Sequence record: OQ850289
DNA length: 64,000 bases
Reading direction: 5' to 3' (one strand)
Origin: Escherichia phage vB_EcoM_ULIM3
Within the stretch, counting starts at the first letter, position 1; each line of letters opens with the position of its first letter. The notes beneath the pieces were generated by a model. That model had not been told where the DNA came from and ran no database searches. It saw only the letters and a list, made by a program, of their open reading frames with translations. This document shows positions 2,875-62,270 of this stretch, piece by piece. The translations under genes were made by a program, and so were the position numbers.

Positions 2875-3018
2875 AGATAATCCTCTTGTCTTCTGTAATT
2901 TTGAAAGAACAGGTACAGACCAATTTCAGAGGACGAATAGTAGATTAATTCTACCCTTTTTGATTCCTTACAGTGATTGGTATTCTTACCTTTCTTCGGT
3001 TTATTTGATTTTCTCATT
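2856..3018 (-). CDS. small basic protein (start moved to internal ATG with GGAG RBS)
   Basis: ATG at 3018 preceded by AAAGGAG 6 nt upstream; MRKSNKPKKGK... lysine-rich N-terminus. Confidence 0.3.
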
Positions 3019-3115
3019 AAGTCTCCTTTGTAGAACAAGGCAGACCTACAGCTTTAAGTAAGATGGTACAGTAATCCATACAACAAGTCAAGAACTATTG
3101 CAAGTTAAAAAAGTT

Positions 3116-3157
3116 GTTGACAAAGTACTTGACAAGGTGTAGGCTTATAAATACTTA
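3116..3157 (+). promoter_or_regulatory. tandem TTGACA promoter-like block at divergent junction
   Basis: gttgacaaagtacttgacaaggtgt (3116-3140), near-identical to 44996-45020; TAnnnT -10 candidates downstream. Confidence 0.5.
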
Positions 3158-3266
3158 GAAGATAACTTAAAAGGTTCCTCTAAAAAGGCTATTTAAACAG
3201 ATATCTTTCTGGATATCTATCTTTTATCTTAAAAGCCTTTTAAGAGGTCTTATAAGAGGCATACCA

Positions 3267-3638
3267 ATGAAAAACAGAACAAACAAAGGCCAGTTTAAAA
3301 AAGGCCAGTCTGGAAACCCATCTGGAAGACCGAAAGGCTCACGTAACAAAAGTTCACTCGTAAAAGCTCAACTGACCATTGATAATTCTGCTGAGTTTGC
3401 TGCAAAGTTGTTTGAAGCGATTGTTACAAGGGACGCTGCTAAGCTTGCAGAGTTCGGGTTAAACACAGACGACGTAACCATCAAGAGCATGATTGAGGTC
3501 GGTAAAACTATCATGACTCACTCAGCAGGTGAGATGAAAGCAATTGCAGCAGACACTAAGAAGACTACTGATAACGGCGGTCAGTCTCAGACAGATAACA
3601 AACCAACGTTCTCTGCTGTTGCAACCCTCAAAAAATAA
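3267..3638 (+). CDS. hypothetical protein with N-terminal GNPxGRPKG motif (putative DNA-binding)
   Basis: 123 aa; KGQSGNPSGRPKGSRN motif that I recall from small phage DNA-binding proteins (not verified). Confidence 0.45.
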   Translation: MKNRTNKGQFKKGQSGNPSGRPKGSRNKSSLVKAQLTIDNSAEFAAKLFEAIVTRDAAKLAEFGLNTDDVTIKSMIEVGKTIMTHSAGEMKAIAADTKKTTDNGGQSQTDNKPTFSAVATLKK

Positions 3639-3650
3639 TTTTAAAAGGTG

Positions 3651-3686
3651 TTGACAGACTCTACAAAGTTGCTCTAAAGTCTGTCA
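3651..3686 (+). promoter_or_regulatory. sigma70-type promoter with overlapping 9-bp inverted repeat
   Basis: TTGACA 3651-3656; TAAAGT at 3675-3680; inverted repeat tgacagact (3652-3660) / agtctgtca (3678-3686). Confidence 0.5.
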
Positions 3687-3719
3687 CATCAAACAACAAA
3701 TGAGAGAAGAGAGTAAAAT

Positions 3720-5135
3720 ATGAGCGAATTATTTAAACATGCGCACCTTCATGCAGGTCGAACTGAAAATGGTGCTGTAAACCATACTTCATCAATGTCT
3801 GCTCTTGTAGACTTTTACAAAGCTGCTGGTTCAAGCCGTAGCAACGTAGAAATCTTACCAGACCTGTTCTGCAAAGCTTTGCGTGAGGATGTTGATGTCG
3901 CAGTTCGTATTTTGCTTCATATGCGAGATGTACGAGAAGGTATGGGTGAGCGTAAAGCCTTCAGAACTGTTTTGCTTCAAGCGATTGAAGACAAAGTTTT
4001 AGAGCCTACGCAGGTTCTTCGCATTATGGATAAGATTGCAGAACTTGGTCGTTTTGATGACTTCAAAATCTTCGTAGGTACTCGTTTCGAGACAGATGCC
4101 TTCAAACATTTAGAAGCAGCATTACTAGACCCTGCAACAGCAGGTTTGGCGGCTAAGTGGTTACCACGAGTCAAACCACGTCATAAGCAGTTTGTAAAAC
4201 GTTTCTGCAAGTTTGCCAACTTAAGTGAGAAAGAGTACCGCACACTATTGTCTGCACTATCTGATACAGTTGAGCAAAAAATCTCTGCTAATGAGTTTGG
4301 TAAGATTGACTACAGTAAGATTCCTTCACTTGCTGCTGCACGTTACCAAAAACTGTTTAACCGTAAAGATGGAGAACGCTACAAAGCTTACATCGAGTCA
4401 TTATCAAAGGGTGAGGCTAAGATTAATGCTGGTGCTGTTTACCCATACGATGTGATTAAATCTGTTAAGTATGGTAATGCAGATGTTGCTAATGAGCAGT
4501 GGAAAGCACTACCAAACTGGATGGCAGAGGGTGAGAACATTTTGTGTATGACTGATGTCTCAAGCTCAATGTCTTGGGTGAATTTCGGTTCAATCACTGC
4601 TCTTGATATTGGTGTATCTCTTGCACTGTATGTAGCAGAACGCAATACTGGTTGTTTTAAAAATGAGTTAATGGTTTATTCAACAAACCCTCACTTCATC
4701 GAACTGAGTGGTGATTTACGAAACCGTCATCGTCAGGTAATGCGTTATACTGAATATGGTTCAACTAACTTACAAGCAGCTTTTGACCGTATTCTTGAGA
4801 CAGGTAAAAGAAACAACTTGACTCAGAAAGATATGCCAAGTAAGCTTATCATCTTCTCCGATATGGAGTTCAATCAGGTTGATGGAGCTAACGGTCGTAC
4901 AAACTTTGAAGCAATTCAGAGTAAGTACAAAAAAGCTGGATATGAGATGCCACAACTGGTATTCTGGTACTTAGCAAACCGTAATGGTACTTGCGAAGTA
5001 TCTGTTAAGGATAACGGTGTAGCAATGGTATCAGGGTTCTCTCCAGCCACTTTAAAAGCTCTGCTTGGTGGTGAGAAGTTTGACCCAATCAGCGTAATGC
5101 TCAAAGCAGTAATGGTTGACCGTTATATCTGGTAA
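3720..5135 (+). CDS. vWA-domain protein with MIDAS motif; helical N-terminal domain (Ro60/TROVE-like architecture, hypothesis)
   Basis: 471 aa; perfect DxSxS MIDAS (D-V-S-S-S, nt 4549-4563) in C-terminal half; N-terminal RDVREGMGER motif; own promoter at 3651. Confidence 0.65.
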   Translation: MSELFKHAHLHAGRTENGAVNHTSSMSALVDFYKAAGSSRSNVEILPDLFCKALREDVDVAVRILLHMRDVREGMGERKAFRTVLLQAIEDKVLEPTQVLRIMDKIAELGRFDDFKIFVGTRFETDAFKHLEAALLDPATAGLAAKWLPRVKPRHKQFVKRFCKFANLSEKEYRTLLSALSDTVEQKISANEFGKIDYSKIPSLAAARYQKLFNRKDGERYKAYIESLSKGEAKINAGAVYPYDVIKSVKYGNADVANEQWKALPNWMAEGENILCMTDVSSSMSWVNFGSITALDIGVSLALYVAERNTGCFKNELMVYSTNPHFIELSGDLRNRHRQVMRYTEYGSTNLQAAFDRILETGKRNNLTQKDMPSKLIIFSDMEFNQVDGANGRTNFEAIQSKYKKAGYEMPQLVFWYLANRNGTCEVSVKDNGVAMVSGFSPATLKALLGGEKFDPISVMLKAVMVDRYIW

Positions 5136-5145
5136 AAAGTTTTAA

Positions 5146-5182
5146 AAAGGGTATTGACAATGTGTTTAATACCCTTTAATAT
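5146..5182 (+). promoter_or_regulatory. sigma70 promoter within palindrome, upstream of tRNA island
   Basis: TTGACA 5154-5159, exact 17-nt spacer, TAATAT 5177-5182; inverted repeat aagggtatt/aataccctt spans -35 and spacer. Confidence 0.7.
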
Positions 5183-5244
5183 GTTCTACATAGAAACGAA
5201 ATGAGAGCTTTTCTAAGATACTGAAAAATATTTTAAAAAAGTTC

Positions 5245-5278
5245 TTGACAACCACTAAAAAATAATGTTAAAGTGGTT
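5245..5278 (+). promoter_or_regulatory. second promoter-like element upstream of first tRNA
   Basis: TTGACA 5245-5250 preceded by TTTTAAAAAA; inverted repeat aaccact/agtggtt; weak -10. Confidence 0.4.
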
Positions 5279-5300
5279 ACATAGAGTTTGAAAAGTTTAT

Positions 5301-5377
5301 CTCTGTTTAGCTCAGCTTGGTAGAGCGTTCCGTTTGGGGCGGTAAGGCCGGAGGTTCAAGTCCTCCAACAGAGACCA
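5301..5377 (+). tRNA. tRNA-Pro (TGG)
   Basis: acceptor ctctgtt/aacagag (C1-G72, disc A, CCA encoded); anticodon loop tttgggg; T-arm ggagg-ttcaagt-cctcc; one mismatch in anticodon stem. Confidence 0.6.
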
Positions 5378-5384
5378 AATTAAT

Positions 5385-5462
5385 GTTCCAGTAGACAAAA
5401 TGGTAAAGTCACCACTCTTTCAAAGTGGATATTTGAGGGTTCAAATCCCTTCTGGAACGCCA
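5385..5462 (+). tRNA. tRNA-Glu (TTC)
   Basis: acceptor gttccag/ctggaac; anticodon stem ccact/agtgg, loop ctttcaa; T-loop ttcaaat; CCA encoded. Confidence 0.7.
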
Positions 5463-5467
5463 GTTTT

Positions 5468-5544
5468 GACAGAAGACCAATTGCAGCAAACTTAATCTTA
5501 TTCATCTGAAGGTAAATCGGACAAAGAAGAGATTTGGTCTGGTC
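5468..5544 (+). ncRNA. stem-closed element A (CAGAAGACC...GGTCTGG family)
   Basis: 7-bp helix 5474-5480/5534-5540 (AGACCAA:TTGGTCT) closing a 53-nt AT-rich interior; fills the tRNA-sized spacer between two tRNAs. Confidence 0.4.
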
Positions 5545-5553
5545 ATTAAGAAT

Positions 5554-5630
5554 TGCGGGTATAGAGAAAGGGCGTCTCACATGTCTCATTAGCATGGTAT
5601 CGGCAGGTTCGACTCCTGCACCCGCCTCCA
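5554..5630 (+). tRNA. tRNA with CAT anticodon (Met or Ile2)
   Basis: anticodon stem catgt/gcatg, loop ctcatta; T-arm gcagg-ttcgact-cctgc; acceptor 6/7 paired; CCA encoded. Confidence 0.55.
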
Positions 5631-5634
5631 AATT

Positions 5635-5704
5635 TACAGAAGACCGTTTACAGCAAAATTGAATGAAATTTTTAGCGGAAAAAATTGAAAGATACGGTCT
5701 GGTA
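5635..5704 (+). ncRNA. stem-closed element B (CAGAAGACC...GGTCTGG family)
   Basis: 7-bp helix 5641-5647/5694-5700 (AGACCGT:ACGGTCT); first 28 nt identical to element D. Confidence 0.4.
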
Positions 5705-5715
5705 ATACTAAACAT

Positions 5716-5792
5716 GGTTAGGAAGCACATAAGGTATGTGCGGTCGCCTGTTAAGCGAATGGCACAGGGTTCGAATCCCTGACTAACCGCCA
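5716..5792 (+). tRNA. tRNA-Asn (GTT)
   Basis: acceptor ggttagg/actaacc; anticodon loop ctgttaa; T-arm caggg-ttcgaat-ccctg; CCA encoded. Confidence 0.65.
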
Positions 5793-5801
5793 AATTTAAA
5801 T

Positions 5802-5889
5802 GTGTCGTTATCCCGTAGATGGTAGCGGTGGGGACTGTAAATCCCTTGTCATTGAGACTCGGTAGGTTCGACTCCTACACGGCACACCA
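5802..5889 (+). tRNA. tRNA-Tyr (GTA), long variable arm
   Basis: acceptor gtgtcgt/acggcac; anticodon stem gggga/tccct, loop ctgtaaa; ~15-nt variable arm; T-arm gtagg-ttcgact-cctac. Confidence 0.7.
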
Positions 5890-5894
5890 ATAAA

Positions 5895-5971
5895 GGCTAT
5901 GTAGTTTAACTGGAGAAAATACTCCCCTGTCACGGGAGATGATGTGAGTTCAAGTCTCATCGTAGCCGCCA
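5895..5971 (+). tRNA. tRNA-Asp (GTC)
   Basis: acceptor ggctatg/cgtagcc; anticodon stem ctccc/gggag, loop ctgtcac; CCA encoded. Confidence 0.7.
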
Positions 5972-6056
5972 AATTATAATAAGTATTTCAAAATGATGTT
6001 TTGAGAGGGCTATTTAGCCCCTCCCTTAAAGGGTTCTTACGAGTATCCTTTAAAGG

Positions 6057-6134
6057 AGCAGAAGACCAAATTCAGCAAGTTACTTAAAATTTCAAGCCAA
6101 TTTAATTTTGAAAAATTTAAAACTTGGTCTGGCT
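6057..6134 (+). ncRNA. stem-closed element C (CAGAAGACC...GGTCTGG family)
   Basis: 7-bp helix 6063-6069/6124-6130 (AGACCAA:TTGGTCT); interior AT-rich hairpin. Confidence 0.4.
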
Positions 6135-6143
6135 CAACAAATT

Positions 6144-6278
6144 TACAGAAGACCGTTTACAGCAAAACTTAAACAATCTATTTCTCGGTAAAGAAAAGGC
6201 GAAGGTTCGATTCCTTCACTCGGCAGATGTCGAGTTGGTGTAATGGCAGCACTTAAGATGATAAACAACGGTCTGGTA
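6144..6278 (+). ncRNA. stem-closed element D with internal tRNA-like module
   Basis: 8-bp helix 6150-6157/6267-6274 (AGACCGTT:AACGGTCT); interior has T-arm-like gaagg-ttcgatt-ccttc (6201-6217) and D-loop-like agttggtgtaatgg (6231-6246) but no full cloverleaf. Confidence 0.4.
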
Positions 6279-6421
6279 ATTATCTTTGTAGATAAGTTAT
6301 TAAGCTTACCTGTGAGTATGCGACCACAAAGGGTGAAAGGGTAAATTCTAGATTTAAACCCAAAAAGGCACATCGCTACAGACCTTAAGCAAGTCTGGGT
6401 AGCTTATCTACAAAGATAATT
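6278..6421 (+). repeat. 19-bp perfect inverted repeat (6278-6296 / 6403-6421) enclosing 106 nt
   Basis: aattatctttgtagataag and its exact reverse complement; lies between element D and tRNA-Lys. Confidence 0.75.
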
Positions 6422-6425
6422 TAAT

Positions 6426-6501
6426 GGAAGTGTAGCAGAATGGTGATGCGGCAGACTTTTAATCTGACAGGCGATGGGTTCGAATCCCTCCACTTCTACC
6501 A
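6426..6501 (+). tRNA. tRNA-Lys (TTT)
   Basis: acceptor ggaagtg/cacttct; anticodon loop cttttaa; T-loop ttcgaat (T-stem only 3 bp); CCA encoded. Confidence 0.6.
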
Positions 6502-6505
6502 AAAT

Positions 6506-6582
6506 GGTTCAGTCGCAGATAAGGTAATGCAAGGGTCTCATAAGCCCTATGAATGTGGGTTCGATTCCCATCTGAACCTCCA
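6506..6582 (+). tRNA. tRNA-Met (CAT)
   Basis: acceptor ggttcag/ctgaacc; anticodon stem agggt/gccct, loop ctcataa; CCA encoded. Confidence 0.7.
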
Positions 6583-6584
6583 AT

Positions 6585-21230: not shown

Positions 21231-21242
21231 TAAATCCTATAA

Positions 21243-21276
21243 GGGGGAGACTTTAAAAGGTCTTCCCCTTTTTTGT
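21243..21276 (+). terminator. intrinsic terminator after tail tube gene
   Basis: gggggagac...gtcttcccc stem followed by TTTTTTG. Confidence 0.7.
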
Positions 21277-21303
21277 TTCTTTTAAAAGTATTAAGGAATC
21301 ACA

Positions 21304-33536: not shown

Positions 33537-33615
33537 TCCCTTGTTGACTGATTGTTAAGATGGTGTTAATATTCTTTATGGGTATTCTCACCATCTTGGC
33601 TGATGAGGTGATTAA

Positions 33616-36812: not shown

Positions 36813-37142
36813 TTAATCTGCCAACCTTAAATTGAAATTAACACCAAATTTTTCACATACTTCCAACATATACTCAAGGGAGACGTTACCAGTGAGATGG
36901 ATTATGTTGGATACACGAGCCTGAGAGATACCACAAATTTTAGCAACTTGCTCTTGAGAAAGGCCTCTGGATTTAATCTCTCTCTTAAAACGATGTGCAA
37001 CGAAGTCTCTCATTTCGTCTACATCCATTGGACAAATATAACTCTCCATTTCAGCCTCTCTATCAGCCTCCCAATCATCTTGTGGGGCATAAGGGTCAAA
37101 AACCTCATTCATCTTTCTTCTTCCGTTTGCGTGAAGTGTCAA
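36813..37142 (-). CDS. XRE-family helix-turn-helix transcriptional regulator
   Basis: LSQEQVAKICGISQARVSNI helix-turn-helix signature. Confidence 0.6.
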   Translation of the reverse strand: MTLHANGRRKMNEVFDPYAPQDDWEADREAEMESYICPMDVDEMRDFVAHRFKREIKSRGLSQEQVAKICGISQARVSNIIHLTGNVSLEYMLEVCEKFGVNFNLRLAD

Positions 37143-37318: not shown

Positions 37319-37702
37319 TCAAATACCTGTGCAGCTTCTGTTTTCTAAGAAATACTCCACACCATACATAGCTTTTTGCATTAAATCTTCTTTAAACTGG
37401 ATACGATGATTGAGCATAGCCTGTACATCAATATCATCAGGGTGCTTCTCTTTAATGTTTGCAGATTGCAGGAAGTACTCTGCAAGAACGCGATACTGGT
37501 AGTCAGTCACCTTATCAGTCATCTCTGTCAAAGACTCTTCAGAGATGGGTTTAAGTAACTCACCATTAGCTAGAGCAACACCTTTTACAATCTGGCAAGT
37601 GTCTTCTGGAACACCTGATAAGTCCACATTTGGAAGTTCTGTTGCATTGACTGGTAAATTCATTGCCATAACCATTGCAGCAGCTAATAAAATCTTTTTC
37701 AT
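37319..37702 (-). CDS. secreted/periplasmic protein (signal peptide)
   Basis: MKKILLAAAMVMAMNLPVNA signal-peptide-like N-terminus; own promoter in repeat region R1. Confidence 0.5.
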   Translation of the reverse strand: MKKILLAAAMVMAMNLPVNATELPNVDLSGVPEDTCQIVKGVALANGELLKPISEESLTEMTDKVTDYQYRVLAEYFLQSANIKEKHPDDIDVQAMLNHRIQFKEDLMQKAMYGVEYFLENRSCTGI

Positions 37703-37746: not shown

Positions 37747-37775
37747 AAAATAAGCTATAACACCTGACTTGTCAA
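37747..37775 (-). promoter_or_regulatory. sigma70-type promoter (minus strand) for 37319-37702
   Basis: minus-strand TTGACA (37775-37770), 17-nt spacer, TATTTT (37752-37747); flanked by 9-bp inverted repeat taagctata/tatagctta. Confidence 0.5.
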
Positions 37776-38140
37776 CAGATTTTATAGCTTATTTGGCAGA
37801 TTTTTTATAAGGCTACTGCCATCCTTCCATACCAAACCTCACCTGACCTCGCCTAACCCTACCTTACTCCACCATACAGCACCTTATTAAAACACCCTGT
37901 TTAAAGACCTTTTAAAAAGGTAAGTCTCATTTTAATGTAGCTGAGACTAACTACCCATACCTCACCCTACCAGACCCTACCGAACATCACTTAAAAACCC
38001 TCTTAGAAGACTCTTAAGTGATGTAATCGAATTTTAATGTAGCTCCGATTAACTACCCATACCTCACCTCACCCAACCATACCATGCCTTGCCAGACCGC
38101 ACCTTACCTCATTAAAAGACCCTCTTAAAAGACCTTTTAA

Positions 38141-38166
38141 AAAGGAGCCTCCGAAGAGGCTACCTA
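38141..38166 (-). terminator. intrinsic terminator (minus strand) after 38173-38613
   Basis: minus-strand ggtagcctc-ttcg-gaggct(a)cc hairpin followed by TTTTT. Confidence 0.7.
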
Positions 38167-38172
38167 GTCAAC

Positions 38173-38615: not shown

Positions 38616-39638
<1,023 letters not shown>

Positions 39639-40739
39639 TTACTCATAATCCCTAATAACTAACCCAACAGGGAACTGTAAAGACCCCTTACGAGTCATCT
39701 TCTGGAACTGAACCGTTAAAGGCTTCCCGATAAACTCTTCAGGATGCTCAGCCAGATACTGCTTTTTCTCATGAGTGGTTTTCCATGAGACATCTACAAA
39801 GACGTTAGGAAGAGTCTCTACAACGAACTTACCATGACCACGTTTATCAGTCTTTACACCAGTTACTTTAAACTCTTCAGTGTGCATCTTCTTGTGCTTA
39901 ATCAAGAAGTATGAACGGTGACAACACTCATAGAAGGAGTCTTCAGAGATTGAACGGTACATTGCACCTTCAAACTTAGCTTCAACCCACTTATCATGAG
40001 CTTCATCAAATTCTTCCCAAGAATTTACACGGATAGTCTGCACAGGAACAACTCTACAGGTATCCCCAAGCTCAACAATAGGTGAGTTATCAATAACTTC
40101 ACGACGCTCAGGCCAAGATTTTGAATTGTCACAGATATCATACCAGTAGAATTTAAGAAGGTGACGGTCTGGATTGTCAGCATTCTTAATCATAGACACA
40201 ATATCTTCTAAGTCCCAACCATGAGCATAAATCTCTCCATCAAAGTCTTCAACTTGCGGATGTAATTTAAGCAACAAAAGTAAGTCTGGTATTAGTTCTG
40301 CTGGAACGTTGTAAACAGTATTCTCACGAGAATAAGCTGTGAAACCGACTGAATCAGCATCTCTTGAAATTCTACAACGTACACCATCCAGTTTCGGTTG
40401 AGCATCAGCAGGGAACTTCAGATACTTTGCATGACTAACCTTTGCAGCATCATGAGCAAGCTGTACACCTACCTTCTCAGTATTCTGTGCAGACTCTTTT
40501 GTGTAAGCATACCCTTTACGGTCAACTTGCTTTTTATACTTAGCAGCAACTTCAAAGAGAGCTTGCTGTTCAGCATTACGCTCATTCTTTTTACCGATGT
40601 TTTTAGGTTCTGCTGTATACTCTTCAAACATCATCTTGCCATTTTCTTTGCCATAGGTTGTAATAACCTTGTCACCTACAGCAGTACATGACCAGATGTT
40701 AAAAGAGCCATCTTTATTTTGTTTGTACAGTATTGTCAT
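39639..40739 (-). CDS. ATP-dependent DNA ligase
   Basis: KLDGVRC motif I (adenylation lysine); start set at ATG 40739 with AGGAA RBS. Confidence 0.8.
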   Translation of the reverse strand: MTILYKQNKDGSFNIWSCTAVGDKVITTYGKENGKMMFEEYTAEPKNIGKKNERNAEQQALFEVAAKYKKQVDRKGYAYTKESAQNTEKVGVQLAHDAAKVSHAKYLKFPADAQPKLDGVRCRISRDADSVGFTAYSRENTVYNVPAELIPDLLLLLKLHPQVEDFDGEIYAHGWDLEDIVSMIKNADNPDRHLLKFYWYDICDNSKSWPERREVIDNSPIVELGDTCRVVPVQTIRVNSWEEFDEAHDKWVEAKFEGAMYRSISEDSFYECCHRSYFLIKHKKMHTEEFKVTGVKTDKRGHGKFVVETLPNVFVDVSWKTTHEKKQYLAEHPEEFIGKPLTVQFQKMTRKGSLQFPVGLVIRDYE

Positions 40740-40740
40740 T

Positions 40741-40932
40741 TTATTCCTCTGAGTGATACCAAGTATTGCAAGCATTACATGCGTAAAGCTCTAAATCATT
40801 TTTATCTGGTTTATGAAAACAGTTTGCTCCGCAGTGGCAACGAAACGGTTTTCCACCAACTGTCAGGATGAAGGATTGAACCTTTCCATCAGGAGTTCGT
40901 ACAGCATTTTTATGCTTATCTTCTTTGTTCAT
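40741..40932 (-). CDS. zinc-finger protein
   Basis: CHCGANC...CNAC Cys4 pattern, 63 aa. Confidence 0.45.
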   Translation of the reverse strand: MNKEDKHKNAVRTPDGKVQSFILTVGGKPFRCHCGANCFHKPDKNDLELYACNACNTWYHSEE

Positions 40933-42175: not shown

Positions 42176-42236
42176 GTGACCTCCTATACAAGATACAGTA
42201 TAAGGTACTCTTCCATGAGCACCTTGTCAATACTAA

Positions 42237-44936
42237 TTAGTGTACTTCAAGCCAGCTTTTACCAACCTTACCAGTACCTGTAACAAGCGTTTCTTTCTTA
42301 AGGCCTAAGTTCTTAGAAGCTTGTCCATAATACCAGTCAGTAACTGCTTTCACTTCTGCCGTCATACTTTCTGGGCATTCCCAACTCGTCTCATCGTGAT
42401 ATGCGCAGAGTAAGCGAGCACCAATAGCTGGTTGACGACCATTCAACTTCATCAAACCTTCGTCAATCATACGACGACAAGCAAGGTTAATTGCCTCATT
42501 TTGAATCTGAGCCTCTGAACCCATCAAAAGATAGTTCAATAATTTGTGTGGAGATTTACACCACAACCAAGCTCCAGCAACCTTTACAAAGCCCCCTTTA
42601 GAAATTGCAGCAGTCTTACCAAACACCTCTTCAAGAGCCTTTTTAGTTGCTTTGTAGTCAGCTTCCAAGTCATCTAGTAGCTTCTTAATTTTAGGCAAAC
42701 GGATAAAGTAAGTCTGTTTAGTCAGCGCACCTTCCTGAGTAGTCGCAGCTTTAATCGTCTTAGCAAACTTCTCATCACCTGCACCGAATAGCAGTGCATA
42801 GATACCATTCTTAGCTTTCTTACGACCTTTGCTAATCTCATGAAGAAGATTCTCATCCTGAGTAGCTCGACAAGTCAAGATGTCCTGCTCATCGTTCAAG
42901 CTAAAGTAGATACTGTTCAGTGTATGTGCATCAGTCCCTGAATAGACAACGTACAGGTCATTCTCAGAGTCATAGCGAAGGTACTTATCAATCTCTGGGT
43001 TTAGGTACTCATCAAAATGTTTGCAGTAATAGCGTCCATCTTCTTGACGAATGAACTCAATCTCTTCTTTACCTTGCGTTACCGCTTTGGTGAAGTCTTT
43101 GTCACCCATAAAGTTACAAAGGAGAACTAGCTGGGCTGAGTTCATGTCTACAGAGACAACGTTAGTACCTTCTTCACAAATCCACACTGCCCTCATTGGT
43201 TCCCCATAGACAGCAGCACCAGATGGTACGTTTACAATACCATATTGTGTCATACGTCCAGTTGAAGTACCAAACACCATTGCACCAGCACTAAGGCGAC
43301 CATCGGGACGAATCTGGTTCAACCAACCTTTTTCATCATCCTTTGAGTTCTCAATAGTTCTGCGTCGGTGCATCAAAGTATAGTACTTAGCAATCTTCTG
43401 TCCAAGTTCACCTTCAATCGTATCATAAGATGATTCAGTAAGTTTTGGTGAAGTACGGATTAAGCAAGGCTCAAGCAAATCTGTGTATTTCTTCACAGAC
43501 CAGTTATGCTCAATGTACTGGACACCTTCATGTTCAACATAACTTAAACCACATCGTTCCACCATTTCCTGCCACTTAGGATGTTTTGTAATCATCTTTT
43601 TATTGTCTTTGAAACGACAAACTTTGACAGGGCGACCGTCTGAGTCTTTCTTGTAGTTCCAGTCATCTGGAATCCAACCAACTGATTTCAAGTAGTCTTT
43701 AACAACTGCTACCTGAGTCATACGAGAAACTTCAAACTCAATTGGTGTATATGGTGCATCAATCAAACCTGTGTAGCGACTTGACTCAAGTTCAAAGTGG
43801 TTAACAACGTGGCTGTTATAGTACTTCACAGTTTTGACTGTTTTTACTGGCTTCCAGTCTTTGCACTTCTTACCAATCTTTGCATTCAACTCATTGCAAA
43901 TTGCACGAGCATCCTTCATTGCTACAAAACCTTCCTTGTACTCTTCACCAGTTACAGAGTTGGTTGGTGTATAGCAATTTCTCTTTTCAATGTTAAAAAT
44001 CTTCGTAGTTGGCTTACCAAATGGTTTGATTTCGTATGTCTGCATCTCACCATTACGTACCTGCTGACGATACTTTGTCTTAGGGTACTTGGTAATTCTT
44101 TTCAGTCCATCTGCATGACCAAATGTTTCAACATACTCATTCCAAGCTTTTGCAAACTCTTCTCCAGTGACTTTACCTTTGGTCTTAATAGTTGGAGGTA
44201 GATGTGGTTCAACCTCTGAAGCAAGCTCATTAGTCAACTTGTCAAGTTCCTTTACATGGAACTCCATAAGCTCTTTATCAGCTTTCCAACCATTGATAGC
44301 TTGCTGGCTCATCCAGAAAGATGTCTCTTTAGCTCGCATGTAGGTTTCATAAGTGTCTATGCCACACTTCTTAAGCTTGAGATACTCGTTATCAAGTGCC
44401 CGTTTAGTTTTGGCGTTAATACGGATATCTTCTACAACACGAGTGAAGATTTCTGCATTCCACACACCCCAATGCTCAATCTCTGGCTTACGAACACCAA
44501 CACGAGCACCCCATGCAGCCAAGCCATGAGCACCTTTATAACCCTTTGGAGTTGGTCTATCCATCCACTGAACACGAGACTGGATAAGAGAATCCTGAAA
44601 GAAATTACTCCACGGCTTACACTTTGGATTATCAAAGTTCCATAAATCAGGTGCAATGTGATTAAAAACCCACCAGTCATAACCGAGACCGTTATGGATG
44701 CAAAGACGTTTCGCCTTTAATGCAAACTCAATACCTTCACGCAAACCACCCTTAATGTACTTGGTGTACTTGTGACCGAGGATAGGCTCATCTGTAAAAA
44801 CCCATACAGGTGGCTCTTCATCATCAGATTTATAGTCTGCGAAAGCCATTACGTGCACTTTAGTGAACTCAAGGAGTAAACCATCAGTTTCTGTATCACC
44901 AACTAAATGTAAGTTTTTAAAATCTACGTTTTCCAT
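42237..44936 (-). CDS. DNA polymerase, family A, with 3'-5' exonuclease domain
   Basis: exo motif VGDTETDGL; motif B-like KGRKKAKNGIYALLFGAG; motif C YHDE; start set at ATG 44936 with AGAGGGAG RBS. Confidence 0.85.
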   Translation of the reverse strand: MENVDFKNLHLVGDTETDGLLLEFTKVHVMAFADYKSDDEEPPVWVFTDEPILGHKYTKYIKGGLREGIEFALKAKRLCIHNGLGYDWWVFNHIAPDLWNFDNPKCKPWSNFFQDSLIQSRVQWMDRPTPKGYKGAHGLAAWGARVGVRKPEIEHWGVWNAEIFTRVVEDIRINAKTKRALDNEYLKLKKCGIDTYETYMRAKETSFWMSQQAINGWKADKELMEFHVKELDKLTNELASEVEPHLPPTIKTKGKVTGEEFAKAWNEYVETFGHADGLKRITKYPKTKYRQQVRNGEMQTYEIKPFGKPTTKIFNIEKRNCYTPTNSVTGEEYKEGFVAMKDARAICNELNAKIGKKCKDWKPVKTVKTVKYYNSHVVNHFELESSRYTGLIDAPYTPIEFEVSRMTQVAVVKDYLKSVGWIPDDWNYKKDSDGRPVKVCRFKDNKKMITKHPKWQEMVERCGLSYVEHEGVQYIEHNWSVKKYTDLLEPCLIRTSPKLTESSYDTIEGELGQKIAKYYTLMHRRRTIENSKDDEKGWLNQIRPDGRLSAGAMVFGTSTGRMTQYGIVNVPSGAAVYGEPMRAVWICEEGTNVVSVDMNSAQLVLLCNFMGDKDFTKAVTQGKEEIEFIRQEDGRYYCKHFDEYLNPEIDKYLRYDSENDLYVVYSGTDAHTLNSIYFSLNDEQDILTCRATQDENLLHEISKGRKKAKNGIYALLFGAGDEKFAKTIKAATTQEGALTKQTYFIRLPKIKKLLDDLEADYKATKKALEEVFGKTAAISKGGFVKVAGAWLWCKSPHKLLNYLLMGSEAQIQNEAINLACRRMIDEGLMKLNGRQPAIGARLLCAYHDETSWECPESMTAEVKAVTDWYYGQASKNLGLKKETLVTGTGKVGKSWLEVH

Positions 44937-44995
44937 TTTTACTCCCTCTAAAATCATTAACCTCATACATTACTGCAAAAAATTATAAAAAGCAA

Positions 44996-45037
44996 GTTGA
45001 CAATGTACTTGACAAGGTGTTAATCTTTGCGAAGTGG
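44996..45037 (+). promoter_or_regulatory. tandem TTGACA promoter-like block at divergent junction
   Basis: gttgacaatgtacttgacaaggtgt (44996-45020); upstream of first plus-strand replication-block gene. Confidence 0.5.
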
Positions 45038-45193
45038 GTTTTTACTTAAAAGGTTACTTAACAGTTTAACTATACAGATACTTTAAAACTCTTAAAAGAT
45101 TATTTAATAGCTTTTAAAAAGCTTTAAAGTATAACGTATAGAATACGTTAAGATAAAAGATTAAAACTTAATAGTTACTTAAAAGAGGCTTAC

Positions 45194-47444: not shown

Positions 47445-49422
47445 AGGTCGTAAATTGAAAGAGGCTGGTCAGTTTGTTGGTCATTGTGCATGTCCACGTT
47501 GTGGTTCATCAGATGCTGGTTCAATCTACCATCACGACGATGATTCTTATTCAATGACTTGCTTTAGTTGTAATAAAGGTTTCCCAGAGTGGGATTTTGA
47601 TAAAGGACAAATTGTGAGCACTTATTCTACTGGTTCAGATAATAAAAACCGTACTTTCCGTGGGATGGATTTAGACGATGTAAAAGAAAACCTTGAAGCA
47701 ATGGACTTGAAAGACAGGAAGATTCCTGCAAAAGTTCTTGAACGCTTAGGTATCAAGGTTGACATTGACAGTGATGGTGAAATTGATGCACATTTCTATC
47801 CGACTTACAAACGTAATGAAGATGGCAAACTAGAACATGTTGGCTACCGTGTTCGTCACCGTTACCCAGAGGACCATCCAAAAGAACACCTACGTGGTAA
47901 GCTAAAAGACTTTTCAGGTGGTGTTGGAGACATTAAAGGTGAACTGGCAATGTTCGGTTCATGGATTGCTCCAGAAGGTGGCAACCGTCTATTCATCTGG
48001 GAAGGTGAGATGGAATGTGCTACGGCAATCTACATGACTTCTCTGGCAATTAAAGATAAGTCTCGTCGTAAGAACTACTGTCACGTATCTGTTCCATCAG
48101 GTGCAAACATTAAGTCTATCAAAGACAACTATCAGTACATTACATCATTTGATGAGATTTACTTGTGCTTTGATAACGATGAAGCAGGTGCTAAAGCAAC
48201 AAAAGAGGCTGCTGGCATCCTACCTATTGAGAAGGTTCGTTTATTCCAGTATCCAGAAGGTGTAAAAGACCTTAATGAATGGTGGACAAAGTTCTATAAA
48301 GAGAAAGATACAGTTCTGGAAGGGTTTAAGCAGCGTATCTACAATGCACCTCGTTACTGCCCTGCTGGTATCAAGAACTTTGCAGACGGTTTTGAGGCAA
48401 TGAAGAATCGTGGTCAGATTCCATTGATTCCTTTTCCAGAATCTTTCGGAGACTTGAACAGGCTAACTTACGGTGGTTACGGTTTAGGTGAGATTACGAC
48501 TATTGCAGCACCATCTTCAGTAGGTAAGTCAGCTTACACTCGTGAGATGATTTATTCAGCTTGGAAAGAAACTGATTATAATATCGGTGTAATTCCTGTA
48601 GAAGATACCTATGAAGAGTTGATGGAAATGCTCTGTGCAATCCACCTGAGCAAACAGATTTCTGAGATTCCTTATGATGAACGGGATTGGGATGAATTAA
48701 AGGGAGCACACGCAGAGCTTTCAAAAGGTCGTCGCATCCATATCGTTGACCATCAAGGGGCGATTGACCAAGATAACCTGCTGGAGTTTGTTGACTATCT
48801 TGTTAACAGTTTAGACTGTAAGATTATTATTCTTGACCCTATTACATTGGCTCTGTCACGTTCTGATACGGATGAAGAGGAAGTCTTGTCTGAACTATTG
48901 CGTCGTTGCAAACGCTACCAGTATGCACAGGTAAACGTTTGTCACGTTCGTAAGAGTGCAGGTGGTCAGAAAGCTAACTCTGAAGGTGGAGATATCTCTG
49001 AAGAGGATATTAAGGGTTCTGGTGCGTATTTCCAGATTTCCATGAACAACATTCTGTTAATGCGTAACAAGGTTGACCCAGACCCTGTTAAGAAAAACTT
49101 GACAAAAATCAAGTTAACTAAGTGTCGTCGTCATGGTAAGTCAACAGGTATTGCTGGTCATACTTGGTACAATCCAGACACAGGACGTCTTATCAAAGCT
49201 TCTGGATGTGGTGTTGACATTGATGGTGCAGCAGAAAATATTCGTCAACAGTTTGGTATTGGTGAAGCTGAAGACCATTATGACGACTCTTTACCTCATT
49301 ATGAGGATGAAGTGTTTGACCGTGAGACTGGTGAAGTCTATACTGAAGAACAGCGTCAAAGCTCAACGATTCCACCTGTATTAAGTGAGGATGCAGATGA
49401 CTGCCCGTTTGAAACTGAGTGA
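47431..49422 (+). CDS. bifunctional primase-helicase (T7 gp4-like)
   Basis: N-terminal Cys4 zinc ribbon (CPRCGSSD...CFSCNKGF); helicase Walker A APSSVGKS and Walker B IIILDP. Confidence 0.85.
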   Translation: MLMSKGRKLKEAGQFVGHCACPRCGSSDAGSIYHHDDDSYSMTCFSCNKGFPEWDFDKGQIVSTYSTGSDNKNRTFRGMDLDDVKENLEAMDLKDRKIPAKVLERLGIKVDIDSDGEIDAHFYPTYKRNEDGKLEHVGYRVRHRYPEDHPKEHLRGKLKDFSGGVGDIKGELAMFGSWIAPEGGNRLFIWEGEMECATAIYMTSLAIKDKSRRKNYCHVSVPSGANIKSIKDNYQYITSFDEIYLCFDNDEAGAKATKEAAGILPIEKVRLFQYPEGVKDLNEWWTKFYKEKDTVLEGFKQRIYNAPRYCPAGIKNFADGFEAMKNRGQIPLIPFPESFGDLNRLTYGGYGLGEITTIAAPSSVGKSAYTREMIYSAWKETDYNIGVIPVEDTYEELMEMLCAIHLSKQISEIPYDERDWDELKGAHAELSKGRRIHIVDHQGAIDQDNLLEFVDYLVNSLDCKIIILDPITLALSRSDTDEEEVLSELLRRCKRYQYAQVNVCHVRKSAGGQKANSEGGDISEEDIKGSGAYFQISMNNILLMRNKVDPDPVKKNLTKIKLTKCRRHGKSTGIAGHTWYNPDTGRLIKASGCGVDIDGAAENIRQQFGIGEAEDHYDDSLPHYEDEVFDRETGEVYTEEQRQSSTIPPVLSEDADDCPFETE

Positions 49423-49674
49423 TAGTTACAAAAGAGAGGGGTTCATACCCTTCTTTGAAGAAAAAAGTTTAAATGAATTTCAGGAAGAGTGTTTGACAAA
49501 GGTTGATAGGTTCTATAGAATGCTCTACATGAAATGTGATGGAGGCGTTGAGGTAGAAGAAAAGTTCCATCACAGTATGATAACAGTCACTATTACTATA
49601 CCTCGACATAATATTGGTTGGCTGTTTATAATTAAAGAAAATGTGTTTGAATATCAAGTATATCGGAGAATATC

Positions 49675-49824
49675 ATGAAACACTCTAAAGCATTTGAACA
49701 AGTTTTTGGGGATTCCTTAAAAGCCACTGCTGGTAAACCAGCAAAATACTATGAAGAGAAGCGTGTAAGAACTGGAAAAACTGCACGTAAAGCAGCTTCT
49801 AAAGATAAGCACAACTTCCAGTAA
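49675..49824 (+). CDS. small basic protein (below ORF-track cutoff)
   Basis: 49-aa ORF MKHSKAFEQVF... with GGAG RBS 7 nt upstream. Confidence 0.3.
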   Translation: MKHSKAFEQVFGDSLKATAGKPAKYYEEKRVRTGKTARKAASKDKHNFQ

Positions 49825-49896
49825 TTAATGTTTGACAATAGAGTATCAACAAATTAGAATTGGTACTCTTCATAAATTGAGATAGAGGTTTAAATA

Positions 49897-53978: not shown

Positions 53979-54005
53979 AGGGAGCCTCTTCGGAGGCTCT
54001 TTTCA
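53979..54005 (+). terminator. intrinsic terminator
   Basis: ggagcctc-ttcg-gaggctc hairpin followed by TTTTC. Confidence 0.75.
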
Positions 54006-58080: not shown

Positions 58081-58085
58081 AATGA

Positions 58086-58110
58086 AAGGGTCTCTTCGGA
58101 GACCTTTTTA
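58086..58110 (+). terminator. intrinsic terminator
   Basis: gggtctc-ttcg-gagacc hairpin followed by TTTTTA. Confidence 0.75.
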
Positions 58111-60273: not shown

Positions 60274-60282
60274 AACTTGACA

Positions 60283-60323
60283 AGGTGATGTGGGTGTTGA
60301 TAGGCTTACATCACCTTTTTTAT
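60283..60323 (+). terminator. intrinsic terminator after nrdD
   Basis: aggtgatgt...acatcacct 9-bp stem followed by TTTTTT. Confidence 0.7.
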
Positions 60324-62238: not shown

Positions 62239-62270
62239 AAGGGAACTGTAAAGGTTCCCTTTTTATTTTG
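62239..62270 (+). terminator. intrinsic terminator
   Basis: gggaac-tgtaaag-gttccc hairpin followed by TTTTTATTTT. Confidence 0.7.

What the first reader, a model, noticed from the sequence alone, without database searches (positions are those of the whole stretch)
3651..3686. Promoters embedded in their own inverted repeats
At least four promoter-like TTGACA sites sit inside distinct inverted repeats: tgacagact/agtctgtca (3652-3686), aagggtatt/aataccctt (5147-5176), aaccact/agtggtt (5250-5278), and on the minus strand taagctata/tatagctta (37750-37794). The repeats differ in sequence, so they are not one operator family; each may be a gene-specific regulator site or a structure affecting initiation.
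Basis: seen in the sequence. Interest (0 to 1): 0.3.

Follow-up and report, generated by a model that had tools for sequence, protein, structure and literature searches.

The report
Phage promoters built inside RNA hairpins
In this Felix O1-like E. coli phage, most host-type promoters that sit just after another gene are built inside a hairpin that folds only in RNA read through from upstream, a compact promoter-plus-terminator design already known from T4-like phages rather than a set of regulator binding sites.

Summary
The window is a Felixounavirus genome. All four inverted repeats (IRs) are where stated. Six more promoter-like sites share the design: four strong (33544, 39631-, 42230-, 60277) and two weaker (6675, 49832). 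Of 8 intergenic promoter-like sites, four carry perfect stems of 9-13 bp (null P about 0.008 per site). None of 36 intragenic look-alikes exceeds 7 bp. Seven of the ten longest IRs in the window overlap such sites. Site 3 (7 bp) is not significant alone.

The operator reading is not supported. Across about 25 relatives, arm substitutions give 13 G.U states on the gene-sense strand, 0 A.C and 2 compensated pairs. Chance IRs in coding DNA give 59:75 (Fisher p = 5e-5). So the arms pair in one strand, most simply sense-strand RNA read through from upstream. Promoters in the two divergent regions, with no upstream co-directional gene, have only 5-bp IRs. The 5' arm always lies upstream of the predicted start, so locally started RNA cannot fold it.

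Best reading: composite promoter/hairpin cassettes (terminator, attenuator or 3'-end hairpin). They resemble the PeSLs of T4-like phages and promoter-coupled terminators. This is a new member of a known kind, of modest interest. RNA ends are unmapped.

The parts
3651..3686 (+). S1: -35 TTGACA 3651-56, -10 TAAAGT 3675-80, IR arms 3652-60 / 3678-86 (9 bp, loop 17). Lies 13 nt after the stop of the DUF5681 gene (3267-3638), upstream of the 471-aa gene 3720-5135 (Pfam DUF2828/DUF7788; 'RNA-binding protein'/'vWFA protein' in relatives).
   Evidence: The promoter is annotated at the equivalent place in AYO145A. Arms vary at 3/18 columns and the loop at 14/17; variants A>G and C>T both give sense G.U.
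5146..5182 (+). S2: hairpin 5146-5177 (10 bp perfect, 12 with G.U, 8-nt terminal loop) carrying -35 TTGACA 5154-59; the CCCTTT 3' arm runs into -10 TAATAT 5177-82. Lies 10 nt after the stop of gene 3720-5135. Terminator-like.
   Evidence: flagged terminator-like; dG -13.5, z -4.2. Two variant pair states, both sense G.U.
5245..5278 (+). S3: -35 TTGACA 5245-50, -10 TAAAGT 5269-74, IR 5250-56 / 5272-78 (7 bp, loop 15). Last promoter before the tRNA array (5301 onward).
   Evidence: z -2.1; not significant alone. Three sense G.U variants. In L019-22 the IR is broken, but a new compact IR AACACTA-5-TAGTGTT appears in the spacer.
37747..37794 (-). S4: 13-bp IR 37794-82 / 37760-48 plus an inner 5-bp helix. 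-35 TTGACA 37775-70 is in the terminal loop. -10 TATTTT 37752-47 overlaps a U-rich tail. Upstream of gene 37319-37702.
   Evidence: dG -17.8, z -4.7. Invariant in all 15 distinct relatives while the downstream sequence diverges. Promoter annotated in AYO145A.
33544..33597 (+). Same design, not in the finding: -35 TTGACT 33544-49, -10 TAATAT 33567-72, arms 33557-65 / 33589-97 (9 bp plus a 7-bp inner helix). Lies after the tail-fibre gene stop (33536).
   Evidence: dG -23.7, z -8.2. Arms invariant; loop variable at 9/24 columns.
39574..39631 (-). Same design: -35 TTGACA 39631-26, -10 TATACT 39609-04, arms 39617-08 / 39583-74 (10 bp). Lies 21 nt after the DNA ligase stop.
   Evidence: z -3.4. One sense G.U variant. 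The upstream flank is non-homologous in 9 of 19 contexts. Promoter annotated in AYO145A.
42202..42230 (-). Same design: TTGACA 42230-25 runs into hairpin 42225-17 / 42210-02 (9 bp including one G.U, loop 6). Lies 11 nt after the DNA polymerase stop. The -10 assignment is uncertain (TACCTT at 17 nt or TATACT at 22 nt).
   Evidence: (dG -12.9, z -4.3). Promoter annotated in AYO145A.
60277..60323 (+). Same design and a canonical intrinsic terminator: TTGACA 60277-82, stem 60282-91 / 60308-17 (10 bp), T6 tail. Putative -10 TAGGCT 60301-06 in the conserved loop. Lies 8 nt after the nrdD stop.
   Evidence: dG -20.6, z -5.6. Four G.U variants and two fully compensated pairs (G-C>A-T, A-T>G-C) in L069/L073.
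6666..6703 (+). Weaker case: -35 TTGACA 6675-80, -10 TATAGT 6698-6703, IR ATAAAGT 6666-72 / ACTTTAT 6694-6700 (7 bp). Lies 6 nt after tRNA-Ile.
   Evidence: z -1.4; not significant alone.
49832..49869 (+). Weaker case: -35 TTGACA 49832-37, -10 TAGAAT 49855-60, stem 49840-49 / 49860-69 (6 bp perfect, 10 bp with G.U).
   Evidence: dG -9.6, z -4.2. Promoter annotated in AYO145A.

Best explanation
These are composite promoter/hairpin cassettes.

A host sigma-70-type promoter (TTGACA, 16-18 nt, TAnnnT, with an A-rich upstream tract) is squeezed into the short spacer after a co-directional gene or RNA gene. It is interleaved with an inverted repeat. That repeat folds as a hairpin in the sense-strand RNA arriving from upstream.

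On that read-through RNA the hairpin acts as a terminator or attenuator. This is clear for 60282-60323, which has a U6 tail, and plausible for S2 and S4, which have U-rich tails. Where no U tract follows (S1, S3, 33557, 39574), it may instead act as a pause, processing or 3'-end-protecting hairpin.

RNA started at the embedded promoter begins 3' of the 5' arm. It therefore never contains the complete hairpin and is unaffected. The cassette thus insulates neighbouring early/middle transcription units in minimal space.

Shown: the repeats, their excess at promoter-like sites, single-strand sense-specific pairing constraint, and geometry relative to the predicted start. Inferred: that the sites are active promoters, that the strand that folds is RNA, and what the hairpin does to that RNA.
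For: (1) Excess. 4 of 8 intergenic promoter-like sites have perfect stems >=9 bp, against P = 0.008 per site. 0 of 36 intragenic look-alikes exceed 7 bp. 7 of the 10 IRs >=9 bp in the whole window overlap promoter-like sites.

(2) Strand-specific pairing. Variant pair states in relatives are 13 sense G.U, 0 A.C, 2 compensated and 5 mismatches. Chance IRs in coding DNA give G.U 59, A.C 75, mismatch 97. Canonical terminators of the same genome give G.U 5, A.C 1, compensated 2. Fisher p = 5e-5, or 9e-4 without the obvious terminator; binomial 7/7 for S1-S3 alone, p = 0.016.

(3) Arms are conserved while loops vary (S1: 3/18 against 14/17 columns).

(4) Position. The hairpins start 8-21 nt after the stop codon of a co-directional upstream gene at S1, S2, 33557, 39574, 42230 and 60282, as the canonical terminators do.

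(5) Internal control. Promoters in the two divergent intergenic regions (3117/3129, 44997/45009), which have no co-directional gene just upstream, have only 5-bp IRs.

(6) One member, 60282, is a textbook terminator with covariation.

(7) The same design recurs as a repeated ~88-nt cassette between small early ORFs of the relative AYO145A: TTTACA, 17 nt, TAAAGT inside GGGGCTTA/TAAGCCCC.

(8) Published precedents. PeSLs have stem-loops between or overlapping the -35/-10 boxes and tested terminator and promoter activity (PMC2839356). Promoter-coupled terminators have the stem-loop coinciding with -35 (bioRxiv 10.64898/2026.08.19.745784).
Against: No RNA 5' or 3' ends are mapped for any Felix O1-like phage in the literature I could search, so promoter activity and termination are predictions.

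Five of the eight strong hairpins lack a U tract, and the gap between perfect arms is 12-24 nt at seven of the eight (6 nt at 42230), though inner pairs shorten several terminal loops. They would be poor intrinsic terminators. The genome uses compact GC-rich, U-tailed terminators elsewhere.

Full compensatory changes are seen only at 60282. S4 and 33557 are invariant and carry no covariation information.

The sense-only G.U pattern would also fit a hairpin in the non-template DNA strand.

S3 and 6675 are within chance on stem length alone.
Confidence: 0.6

Rival explanations
1. DNA operators: each inverted repeat is the binding site of a different dimeric regulator (for example the XRE/HTH protein 36813-37142) that represses or activates its own promoter.
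For: The repeats overlap the -35/-10 elements, where repressors usually bind. An HTH_3 protein is encoded in the window. S4 and its upstream ~90 nt are invariant across relatives, which would suit a protein site.
Against: At least eight unrelated arm sequences would need many regulators, and only one small HTH protein is evident. Arm spacings vary widely (loops 6-24 nt). Substitutions keep wobble pairing on one strand only (13 G.U, 0 A.C), which has no meaning for a duplex-DNA site. Arm changes are not mirrored symmetrically in both half-sites. Promoters without upstream co-directional transcription lack repeats.
Confidence: 0.05
2. DNA structure acting on initiation: supercoiling-driven cruciform extrusion, or a hairpin in the non-template strand, exposes or hides the -10/-35 elements and tunes promoter strength.
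For: The hexamers lie in the arms or loops. The sense strand is the non-template strand, so sense-only G.T tolerance is formally compatible with a one-strand DNA hairpin. Hairpin promoters exist in phage N4 (own knowledge).
Against: Loops of 12-24 nt make extrusion energetically and kinetically very unfavourable (established DNA biophysics, own knowledge). A cruciform needs both strands, so each G.T would be matched by an A.C on the other strand and no asymmetry is expected. The arm positions relative to -35/-10 differ from site to site, so there is no common effect on RNA polymerase contacts. Absence of repeats at the divergent-region promoters is explained by read-through logic, not by initiation logic.
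Confidence: 0.08
3. Transcript-origin switch for translation, as in T4 genes e, soc, 49 and I-TevI: the hairpin in read-through RNA hides the ribosome binding site of the next gene, while RNA started inside the hairpin is translated.
For: The geometry is the same as in T4: the promoter lies within or upstream of the DNA encoding the 5' strand of the structure (PMC3014915). At 33544-33597 the minimum-energy fold extends to pair the stop-codon region with the Shine-Dalgarno GAGGTG of gene 33616.
Against: At S1, 42230 and 60282 the Shine-Dalgarno and start codon lie 15-30 nt beyond the hairpin and are unpaired. S2, S3 and 6675 precede tRNAs, and 39574 precedes a 385-nt non-coding stretch. The outer helix at 33544 is not conserved in L050/L052.
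Confidence: 0.07
4. Recombination modules: the cassettes matter mainly as conserved sequences at which homologous recombination swaps neighbouring genes (the PeSL 'modular shuffling' idea), and the hairpin is secondary.
For: Three elements (39574, 42230, 60282) keep >=86% identity while one or both 150-nt flanks are non-homologous in many relatives. None of five canonical terminators shows this. The early-region cassettes of AYO145A are near-identical direct repeats (noted as 57-bp repeats in PMC3185647).
Against: S1-S4, 33557 and 49840 have homologous flanks in all relatives. Inside the window the elements share only the promoter hexamers and the A-rich tract, too little for homologous exchange. 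Recombination does not explain sense-strand wobble conservation. This reading is compatible with, not exclusive of, the best explanation.
Confidence: 0.12
5. Chance or mutational by-product (for example quasi-palindrome correction) with no function.
For: Stems of 7 bp (S3, 6675) are expected in about 10% of such spans. Overall the window has only a mild excess of 8-bp IRs (44 against 32 expected).
Against: Four stems of 9-13 bp among 8 sites is about 3e-7 under the null (derived). Arms are conserved, loops vary, and the wobble-only substitution pattern indicates selection.
Confidence: 0.05

Closest known systems
PeSLs (promoter-early stem-loops) of T4-like phages RB49/phi1, PST/T4 and nt-1/KVP40 (Arbiol et al. 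2010, PMC2839356; Comeau et al. 2014, PMC4122927)
   Same: An intergenic sigma-70-like promoter with an AT-rich upstream tract is combined with a stem-loop. [quoted passage not shown] It is interpreted, and for one element tested, as a terminator/attenuator for upstream transcription. PeSLs are placed between the stop codon and the next Shine-Dalgarno. Some sit at gene-replacement junctions. Repeated near-identical copies lie between small early ORFs, as seen here in the relative AYO145A.
   Different: The phage subfamily is different (Ounavirinae, not T4-like). Inside the window the stems are unrelated in sequence, mostly AT-rich, with long loops that contain a promoter hexamer, instead of compact polyG/polyC stems. 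Only 3 of 9 elements sit at mosaic junctions. No mini-circle or recombination evidence was obtained, and terminator and promoter activity are untested.
Promoter-coupled terminators of bacteria (Fletcher et al., bioRxiv 10.64898/2026.08.19.745784)
   Same: The terminator stem-loop DNA doubles as the -35 region and the T tract abuts the -10. They occur between tandem genes in short spacers. S2 and S4 fit this layout closely.
   Different: That class is defined by mapped 3' ends 8-11 nt upstream of the start site, and no ends are mapped here. In S1, S3, 33557 and 39574 the 3' arm reaches or passes the -10/+1 and no T tract follows. At 60282 the predicted 3' end would lie downstream of the predicted start.
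T4 inhibitory leader structures with an internal promoter (genes e, soc, 49, I-TevI; review PMC3014915)
   Same: A promoter lies within the DNA that encodes the 5' strand of an RNA structure. Long upstream-initiated RNAs therefore fold, and locally initiated RNAs cannot.
   Different: In T4 the internal promoters are late (gp55) promoters and the structure hides the ribosome binding site. Here the promoters are sigma-70-type and the ribosome binding site is generally not in the hairpin.
Canonical Rho-independent terminators of the same genome (for example 21240-21290, 53980-54001, 58085-58108, 62239-62261)
   Same: Same position after stop codons. Same evolutionary signature (G.U tolerated on the sense strand, compensatory changes).
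   Different: The canonical ones are GC-rich, have 4-7-nt loops and a U tract, and carry no promoter hexamers.

Membership tests
PeSL (promoter-early stem-loop) cassettes | Sigma-70-like promoter (-35, about 17 nt, -10) with an AT-rich tract upstream, in an intergenic spacer | tested here: met
   Consensus matches >=10/12 at S1-S4, 6675, 39631 and 49832; 33544 matches 9/12, and 42230 and 60277 have a perfect TTGACA but an uncertain -10. A-rich tracts such as TTTTAAAAAG lie 4-6 nt upstream of -35 at most sites, absent or weak at 42230, 49493 and 49832. The hexamers are invariant in relatives. Activity not measured.
PeSL (promoter-early stem-loop) cassettes | Stable stem-loop between, overlapping or next to the -35/-10 boxes | tested here: met
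   stems of 7-13 bp, dG -6.7 to -23.7 kcal/mol, z-scores -2.1 to -8.2.
PeSL (promoter-early stem-loop) cassettes | Stem-loop works as a terminator/attenuator and the promoter is active (reporter assays in the original paper) | not testable with these tools
   Only indirect evidence: sense-strand wobble conservation, a U tract at 60282, and U-rich tails at S2 and S4.
PeSL (promoter-early stem-loop) cassettes | Conserved repeated motif (~100 bp) present many times in one genome, allowing homologous exchange | tested here: not met
   Within the window the arms are unrelated; only the hexamers, the A tract and TAAAGT recur. The feature is met outside the window, in the early region of the relative AYO145A: five near-identical ~88-nt cassettes.
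PeSL (promoter-early stem-loop) cassettes | Preferential association with insertions, deletions and gene replacements between close relatives | tested here: inconclusive
   Non-homologous flanks at 39574, 42230 and 60282, but not at S1-S4, 33557 or 49840. 0 of 5 canonical terminators show them. Numbers are too small to decide.
Promoter-coupled terminators (Fletcher et al. 2026 preprint) | Mapped RNA 3' end within 35 bp, typically 8-11 bp, upstream of a mapped same-strand start site | not testable with these tools
   No RNA-end data. Predicted geometry is close only for S2 and S4.
Promoter-coupled terminators (Fletcher et al. 2026 preprint) | Stem-loop DNA coincides with -35, and the T tract sits just upstream of -10 | tested here: inconclusive
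   Met at S2 (CCCTTT then TAATAT) and S4 (TTATTTTT overlapping the -10). Not met at S1, S3, 33557 or 39574, which have no T tract.
Repressor operators (XRE/Cro-type dimer sites) | Two half-sites at a fixed helical spacing, shared by the promoters that one regulator controls; conservation independent of strand | tested here: not met
   The arm sequences are unrelated, the loops range from 6 to 24 nt, and substitutions are strand-asymmetric (13 G.U, 0 A.C).
Intrinsic (Rho-independent) terminators | GC-rich stem, short loop, followed by a U tract | tested here: inconclusive
   Met at 60282-60323. Borderline at S2 (flagged) and S4. Not met at S1, S3, 33557 or 39574.

The most novel reading that the evidence does not exclude
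Felix O1-like phages may systematically build their sigma-70 promoters inside sense-strand RNA hairpins as a transcript-origin filter. Any RNA entering from upstream folds the hairpin and is stopped, cut or stabilised there. RNA born at the embedded promoter is structurally 'clean'. This would work even without U tracts, for example through collision with promoter-bound polymerase or an unidentified hairpin-recognising factor. It would be a genome-wide insulation principle that helps set the still unknown temporal programme of these phages.
Probability: 0.25. Interest if true: 0.55.

Novelty: new member of a known kind. Interest (0 to 1): 0.35.

Why it matters
The Felix O1 genome paper states that it is unknown how transcription gets past the phage's many terminators and how it is timed (PMC3185647). 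It lists the early-region cassette only as a 57-bp direct repeat.

Recognising these sites as promoter/hairpin cassettes gives a concrete, testable map of transcription-unit boundaries for a phage group widely used in typing, biocontrol and therapy. It would extend the PeSL idea beyond T4-like phages. It would also add phage examples to the recent claim that promoters and terminators are commonly coupled. For phage engineering, it warns that these promoters cannot be lifted out without carrying, or breaking, an RNA element that acts on the upstream gene.

Tried and rejected
(1) Rfam, at gathering threshold on the whole window and at E<=1 on 3000-10600, found no known RNA family at any site. 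In particular no Y RNA lies next to the gene that relatives annotate as 'RNA-binding protein'.

(2) More distant relatives (L028-L032, L053-L058, L086-L087; 29-51% protein identity) have different intergenic architecture and gave no usable comparison.

(3) Ribosome-binding-site sequestration was considered as a general role. It is predicted only at 33544-33597, and that outer helix is not conserved.

(4) I looked for published start-site or transcriptome data on Felix O1-like phages and found none in the library.

(5) The operator hypothesis with the XRE protein was rejected on arm diversity and strand-asymmetric substitutions.

(6) Treating all sites as plain intrinsic terminators was rejected because five of the eight strong hairpins lack a U tract.

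(7) The first flank-identity tally used a 60% cut-off close to the random baseline of the scoring scheme (~0.55-0.62). It was re-read locus by locus.

Full report
**What the window is.** Megablast of 3000-9000 finds 313 phage records, most at 90-99% identity. They are Escherichia, Salmonella and Shigella Felix O1-like myophages such as wV8, AYO145A and JH2. The window holds 26 tRNA genes, a structural module, and replication and nucleotide-metabolism genes. By comparison with the annotated relative AYO145A and Pfam:
- 39639-40775 is DNA ligase.
- 42237-44966 is DNA polymerase.
- 58129-60273 is anaerobic ribonucleotide reductase.
- 36813-37142 is a small HTH_3 protein.
- 3720-5135 is the protein annotated 'RNA-binding protein' or 'vWFA protein' in relatives.

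**Check of the observation.** All four repeats are present at the stated places.
- S1: TTGACA 3651-56, arms 3652-60 / 3678-86 (9 bp), -10 TAAAGT 3675-80.
- S2: arms 5146-55 / 5168-77 (10 bp, 12 with G.U), TTGACA 5154-59, -10 TAATAT 5177-82.
- S3: TTGACA 5245-50, arms 5250-56 / 5272-78 (7 bp), -10 TAAAGT 5269-74.
- S4 (minus strand): a 13-bp repeat 37794-82 / 37760-48 with TTGACA 37775-70 in its loop.

TTGACA as a word is not enriched (70 against 68 expected). The promoter calls rest on the -10 element, the spacing, an A-rich tract upstream, the intergenic position and invariance of the hexamers in relatives. The AYO145A record independently annotates promoters at the equivalents of S1, S4, 39631, 42230 and 49832, by pattern only.

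**Is it more than chance?** I scanned both strands for promoter-like sites with at least 10 of 12 consensus matches. For each I asked for the longest perfect inverted repeat (loop 3-30) overlapping the promoter span.
- The 8 intergenic sites give stems of 6, 6, 7, 7, 9, 10, 10 and 13.
- The 36 intragenic sites never exceed 7.
- A Markov null on intergenic composition gives P(>=9) = 0.008 and P(>=7) = 0.10.

Four of eight at 9 bp or more is about 3e-7 under that null. Seen from the other side, the window has ten perfect repeats of 9 bp or more, and seven overlap a promoter-like site: S1, S2, S4, 33557-97, 39574-617 and 60282-317 directly, and 49535-74 just downstream of the promoter-like site at 49493. 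With one G.U allowed, 42202-25 joins them. So the finding is real and understated. S3 and 6675 (7 bp each) are not significant alone.

**Two classes of intergenic hairpin.** Folding every co-directional spacer separates two classes.
- Compact GC-rich hairpins with 4-7-nt loops and U tails, which carry no promoter (2034-47, 21240-90, 31150-70, 46450-67, 50773-99, 53980-54001, 58085-108, 62239-61).
- Promoter-bearing hairpins with longer loops holding a -35 or -10 hexamer. Of these, only 60282-323 has a full U tract. S2 and S4 have U-rich tails, and the rest have none.

**DNA site or RNA structure?** I collected about 25 distinct relatives per site from IMG/VR using three flanking proteins. I then aligned each site and listed every variant state of every arm pair.
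- Promoter-embedded repeats: 13 states that are G.U on the gene-sense strand, 0 that are A.C (which would be G.U on the other strand), 2 fully compensated Watson-Crick changes (both at 60282: G-C to A-T and A-T to G-C in L069/L073), and 5 transversion mismatches.
- Negative control, 46 chance repeats of 7 bp or more inside coding sequence, same loci and same procedure: G.U 59, A.C 75, mismatch 97.
- Positive control, the canonical terminators: G.U 5, A.C 1 (in the bidirectional one), compensated 2.

Fisher's test of 13:0 against 59:75 gives p = 5e-5, or 9e-4 without 60282. For S1-S3 alone, 7 of 7 gives p = 0.016. Arms are also more conserved than loops (S1: 3 of 18 against 14 of 17 variable columns). 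A protein site on duplex DNA, or a cruciform that needs both strands, predicts no such asymmetry. The arms pair in one strand, the strand with the sense of the flanking genes, on both orientations of the genome. RNA is the simplest carrier. A non-template-strand DNA hairpin cannot be formally excluded.

**Which RNA?** The predicted start (about 7 nt after the -10) lies 3' of the 5' arm at every site; the arm positions relative to -35 are listed. RNA made from the embedded promoter therefore cannot form the hairpin. Only RNA arriving from upstream can.

Position agrees with this. Six hairpins begin 8-21 nt after the stop codon of a co-directional gene, where terminators sit. The promoters in the two divergent intergenic regions (3117/3129 and 44997/45009) have no co-directional gene just upstream, and they carry only 5-bp repeats, which is chance level.

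In the Mooglevirus-like relatives L019-22 the S3 repeat is broken. A new compact repeat, AACACTA-5 nt-TAGTGTT, appears in the spacer instead. That looks like maintenance of a hairpin rather than of a sequence.

**A family-wide design.** Outside the window, the early region of AYO145A has five near-identical ~88-nt spacers between small ORFs: CTTTACAAGGGGCTTA..TAAAGTAAGCCCCAGATAAAG. That is TTTACA, 17 nt, TAAAGT, with the -10 in the loop of a GGGGCTTA/TAAGCCCC stem. The layout is the same as in S1 and S3. The Felix O1 genome paper lists this sequence only as a 57-bp direct repeat. It also says that the way transcription passes the terminators, and its timing, are unknown. In the window, TT[GT]ACA-N18-TAAAGT occurs 4 times against 0.05 expected.

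**Comparison with known systems.** PeSLs of T4-like phages are sigma-70-like promoters with an AT-rich tract and a stem-loop. [quoted passage not shown] One such stem-loop was tested as an effective terminator, and PeSLs are linked to gene shuffling. A 2026 preprint describes promoter-coupled terminators in bacteria, in which the stem-loop DNA serves as -35, the T tract abuts the -10, and promoter-bound polymerase raises termination at weak hairpins. T4 genes e, soc, 49 and I-TevI have promoters inside the 5' strand of an RNA structure, so that only long transcripts fold.

The present elements work like these. Membership is partial:
- The repeated-motif criterion of PeSLs is not met inside the window, though it is met in the relative's early region.
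- Association with mosaic junctions holds for 3 of 9 elements (39574, 42230, 60282) and for none of 5 plain terminators, which is too few to decide.
- The end-distance criterion of coupled terminators cannot be tested without RNA data.

**Limits.** No promoter or terminator here has been measured. The U-less, long-loop hairpins would be weak intrinsic terminators, so their action is inferred, not shown. It could be pausing, collision-assisted termination, processing or 3'-end protection. S4 and 33557 are invariant and give no covariation evidence. The variant states I counted are distinct states, not events placed on a tree.

**Verdict.** The 'gene-specific operator' reading is not supported. 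The best explanation is PeSL-like promoter/RNA-hairpin cassettes that insulate adjacent transcription units (confidence 0.6). This is a new member of a known kind and of modest interest.

Noticed in passing
window 37800-38170 and 39290-39570 (minus-strand sense): Two long non-coding regions hold 4-5 copies of a degenerate ~100-125-nt repeat. Each copy has a G/T-rich run with (ATGGT)n-like pentamers, then a small hairpin (ttagtctcagctacattaaaatgagact), then 'cctttttaaaaggtctttaaacagggt.ttttaataaggt'. S4 sits at the downstream edge of the first region and P39631 at the upstream edge of the second. Possibly iterons, an origin or non-coding RNA genes.
   Followed up: partly
window 37984-38024 and about 39535-39575: An 11-bp-stem inverted repeat, ACATCACTTAA-N19-TTAAGTGATGT, recurs with one mismatch immediately downstream of the P39631 hairpin. 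It is conserved in relatives.
   Followed up: no
window 3117-3139, 44997-45019, 42230-42220 (-), 60277-60287: The 11-mer TTGACAAGGTG occurs four times. At both divergent intergenic regions it is the second of two TTGACA boxes 12 nt apart (TTGACAa.gtacTTGACAAGGTG), with no convincing -10 for the second box. This may be a distinct promoter class or a factor site.
   Followed up: partly
window 3227-3245 and 45132-45150: About 100-120 nt downstream of each divergent-region promoter pair lies an 8-bp stem with a 3-nt loop (TCTTAAAAgccTTTTAAGA; TAACGTATagaATACGTTA), apparently in the 5' leaders.
   Followed up: no
window 3720-5135 next to the tRNA array 5301-10245: The 471-aa protein (Pfam DUF2828 + DUF7788; 'RNA-binding protein'/'vWFA protein' in relatives) lies directly before 26 tRNA genes. 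No Y-RNA-like or other Rfam family was found in 5136-5300.
   Followed up: partly
window 6602-6906: Sub-threshold Rfam hits to permuted tmRNA (6602-6785; 32.5 bits, gathering score 47) and tmRNA (6717-6906; 16 bits) fall in the 247-nt non-coding gap downstream of P6675. ARAGORN calls no tmRNA there. This is probably driven by tRNA-like parts, but the gap is structured (dG -69).
   Followed up: no
window 14003-14032 (+) and 39248-39219 (-): Two further exact matches to TT[GT]ACA-N18-TAAAGT (4 in the window against 0.05 expected). One lies inside a coding region of the structural module. The other lies just upstream of gene 38616-39218.
   Followed up: no
window 49535-49574: A 9-bp-stem hairpin starts about 8 nt after the predicted start of the promoter-like site 49493-49521. 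It lies inside a doubtful 97-aa ORF (49385-49678) and could be a 5' stabilising hairpin.
   Followed up: no
L078-L084, L088, L089 (relatives), nrdD homologue of window 58129-60273: In several relatives the tblastn match to the anaerobic ribonucleotide reductase spans 2884 or 2458 nt instead of 2142 nt. This indicates an intervening sequence (intron, intein or homing-endonuclease insertion) that the window lacks.
   Followed up: no
L034 (AYO145A) 10885-14565: A second repeated intergenic cassette has no promoter-like hexamers: 'atcaacGGGGAGGGAATGACCTTCCCCactaaataaagtcctaaactggagattcaaaaATG'. It alternates with the promoter/hairpin cassette between small early ORFs.
   Followed up: no
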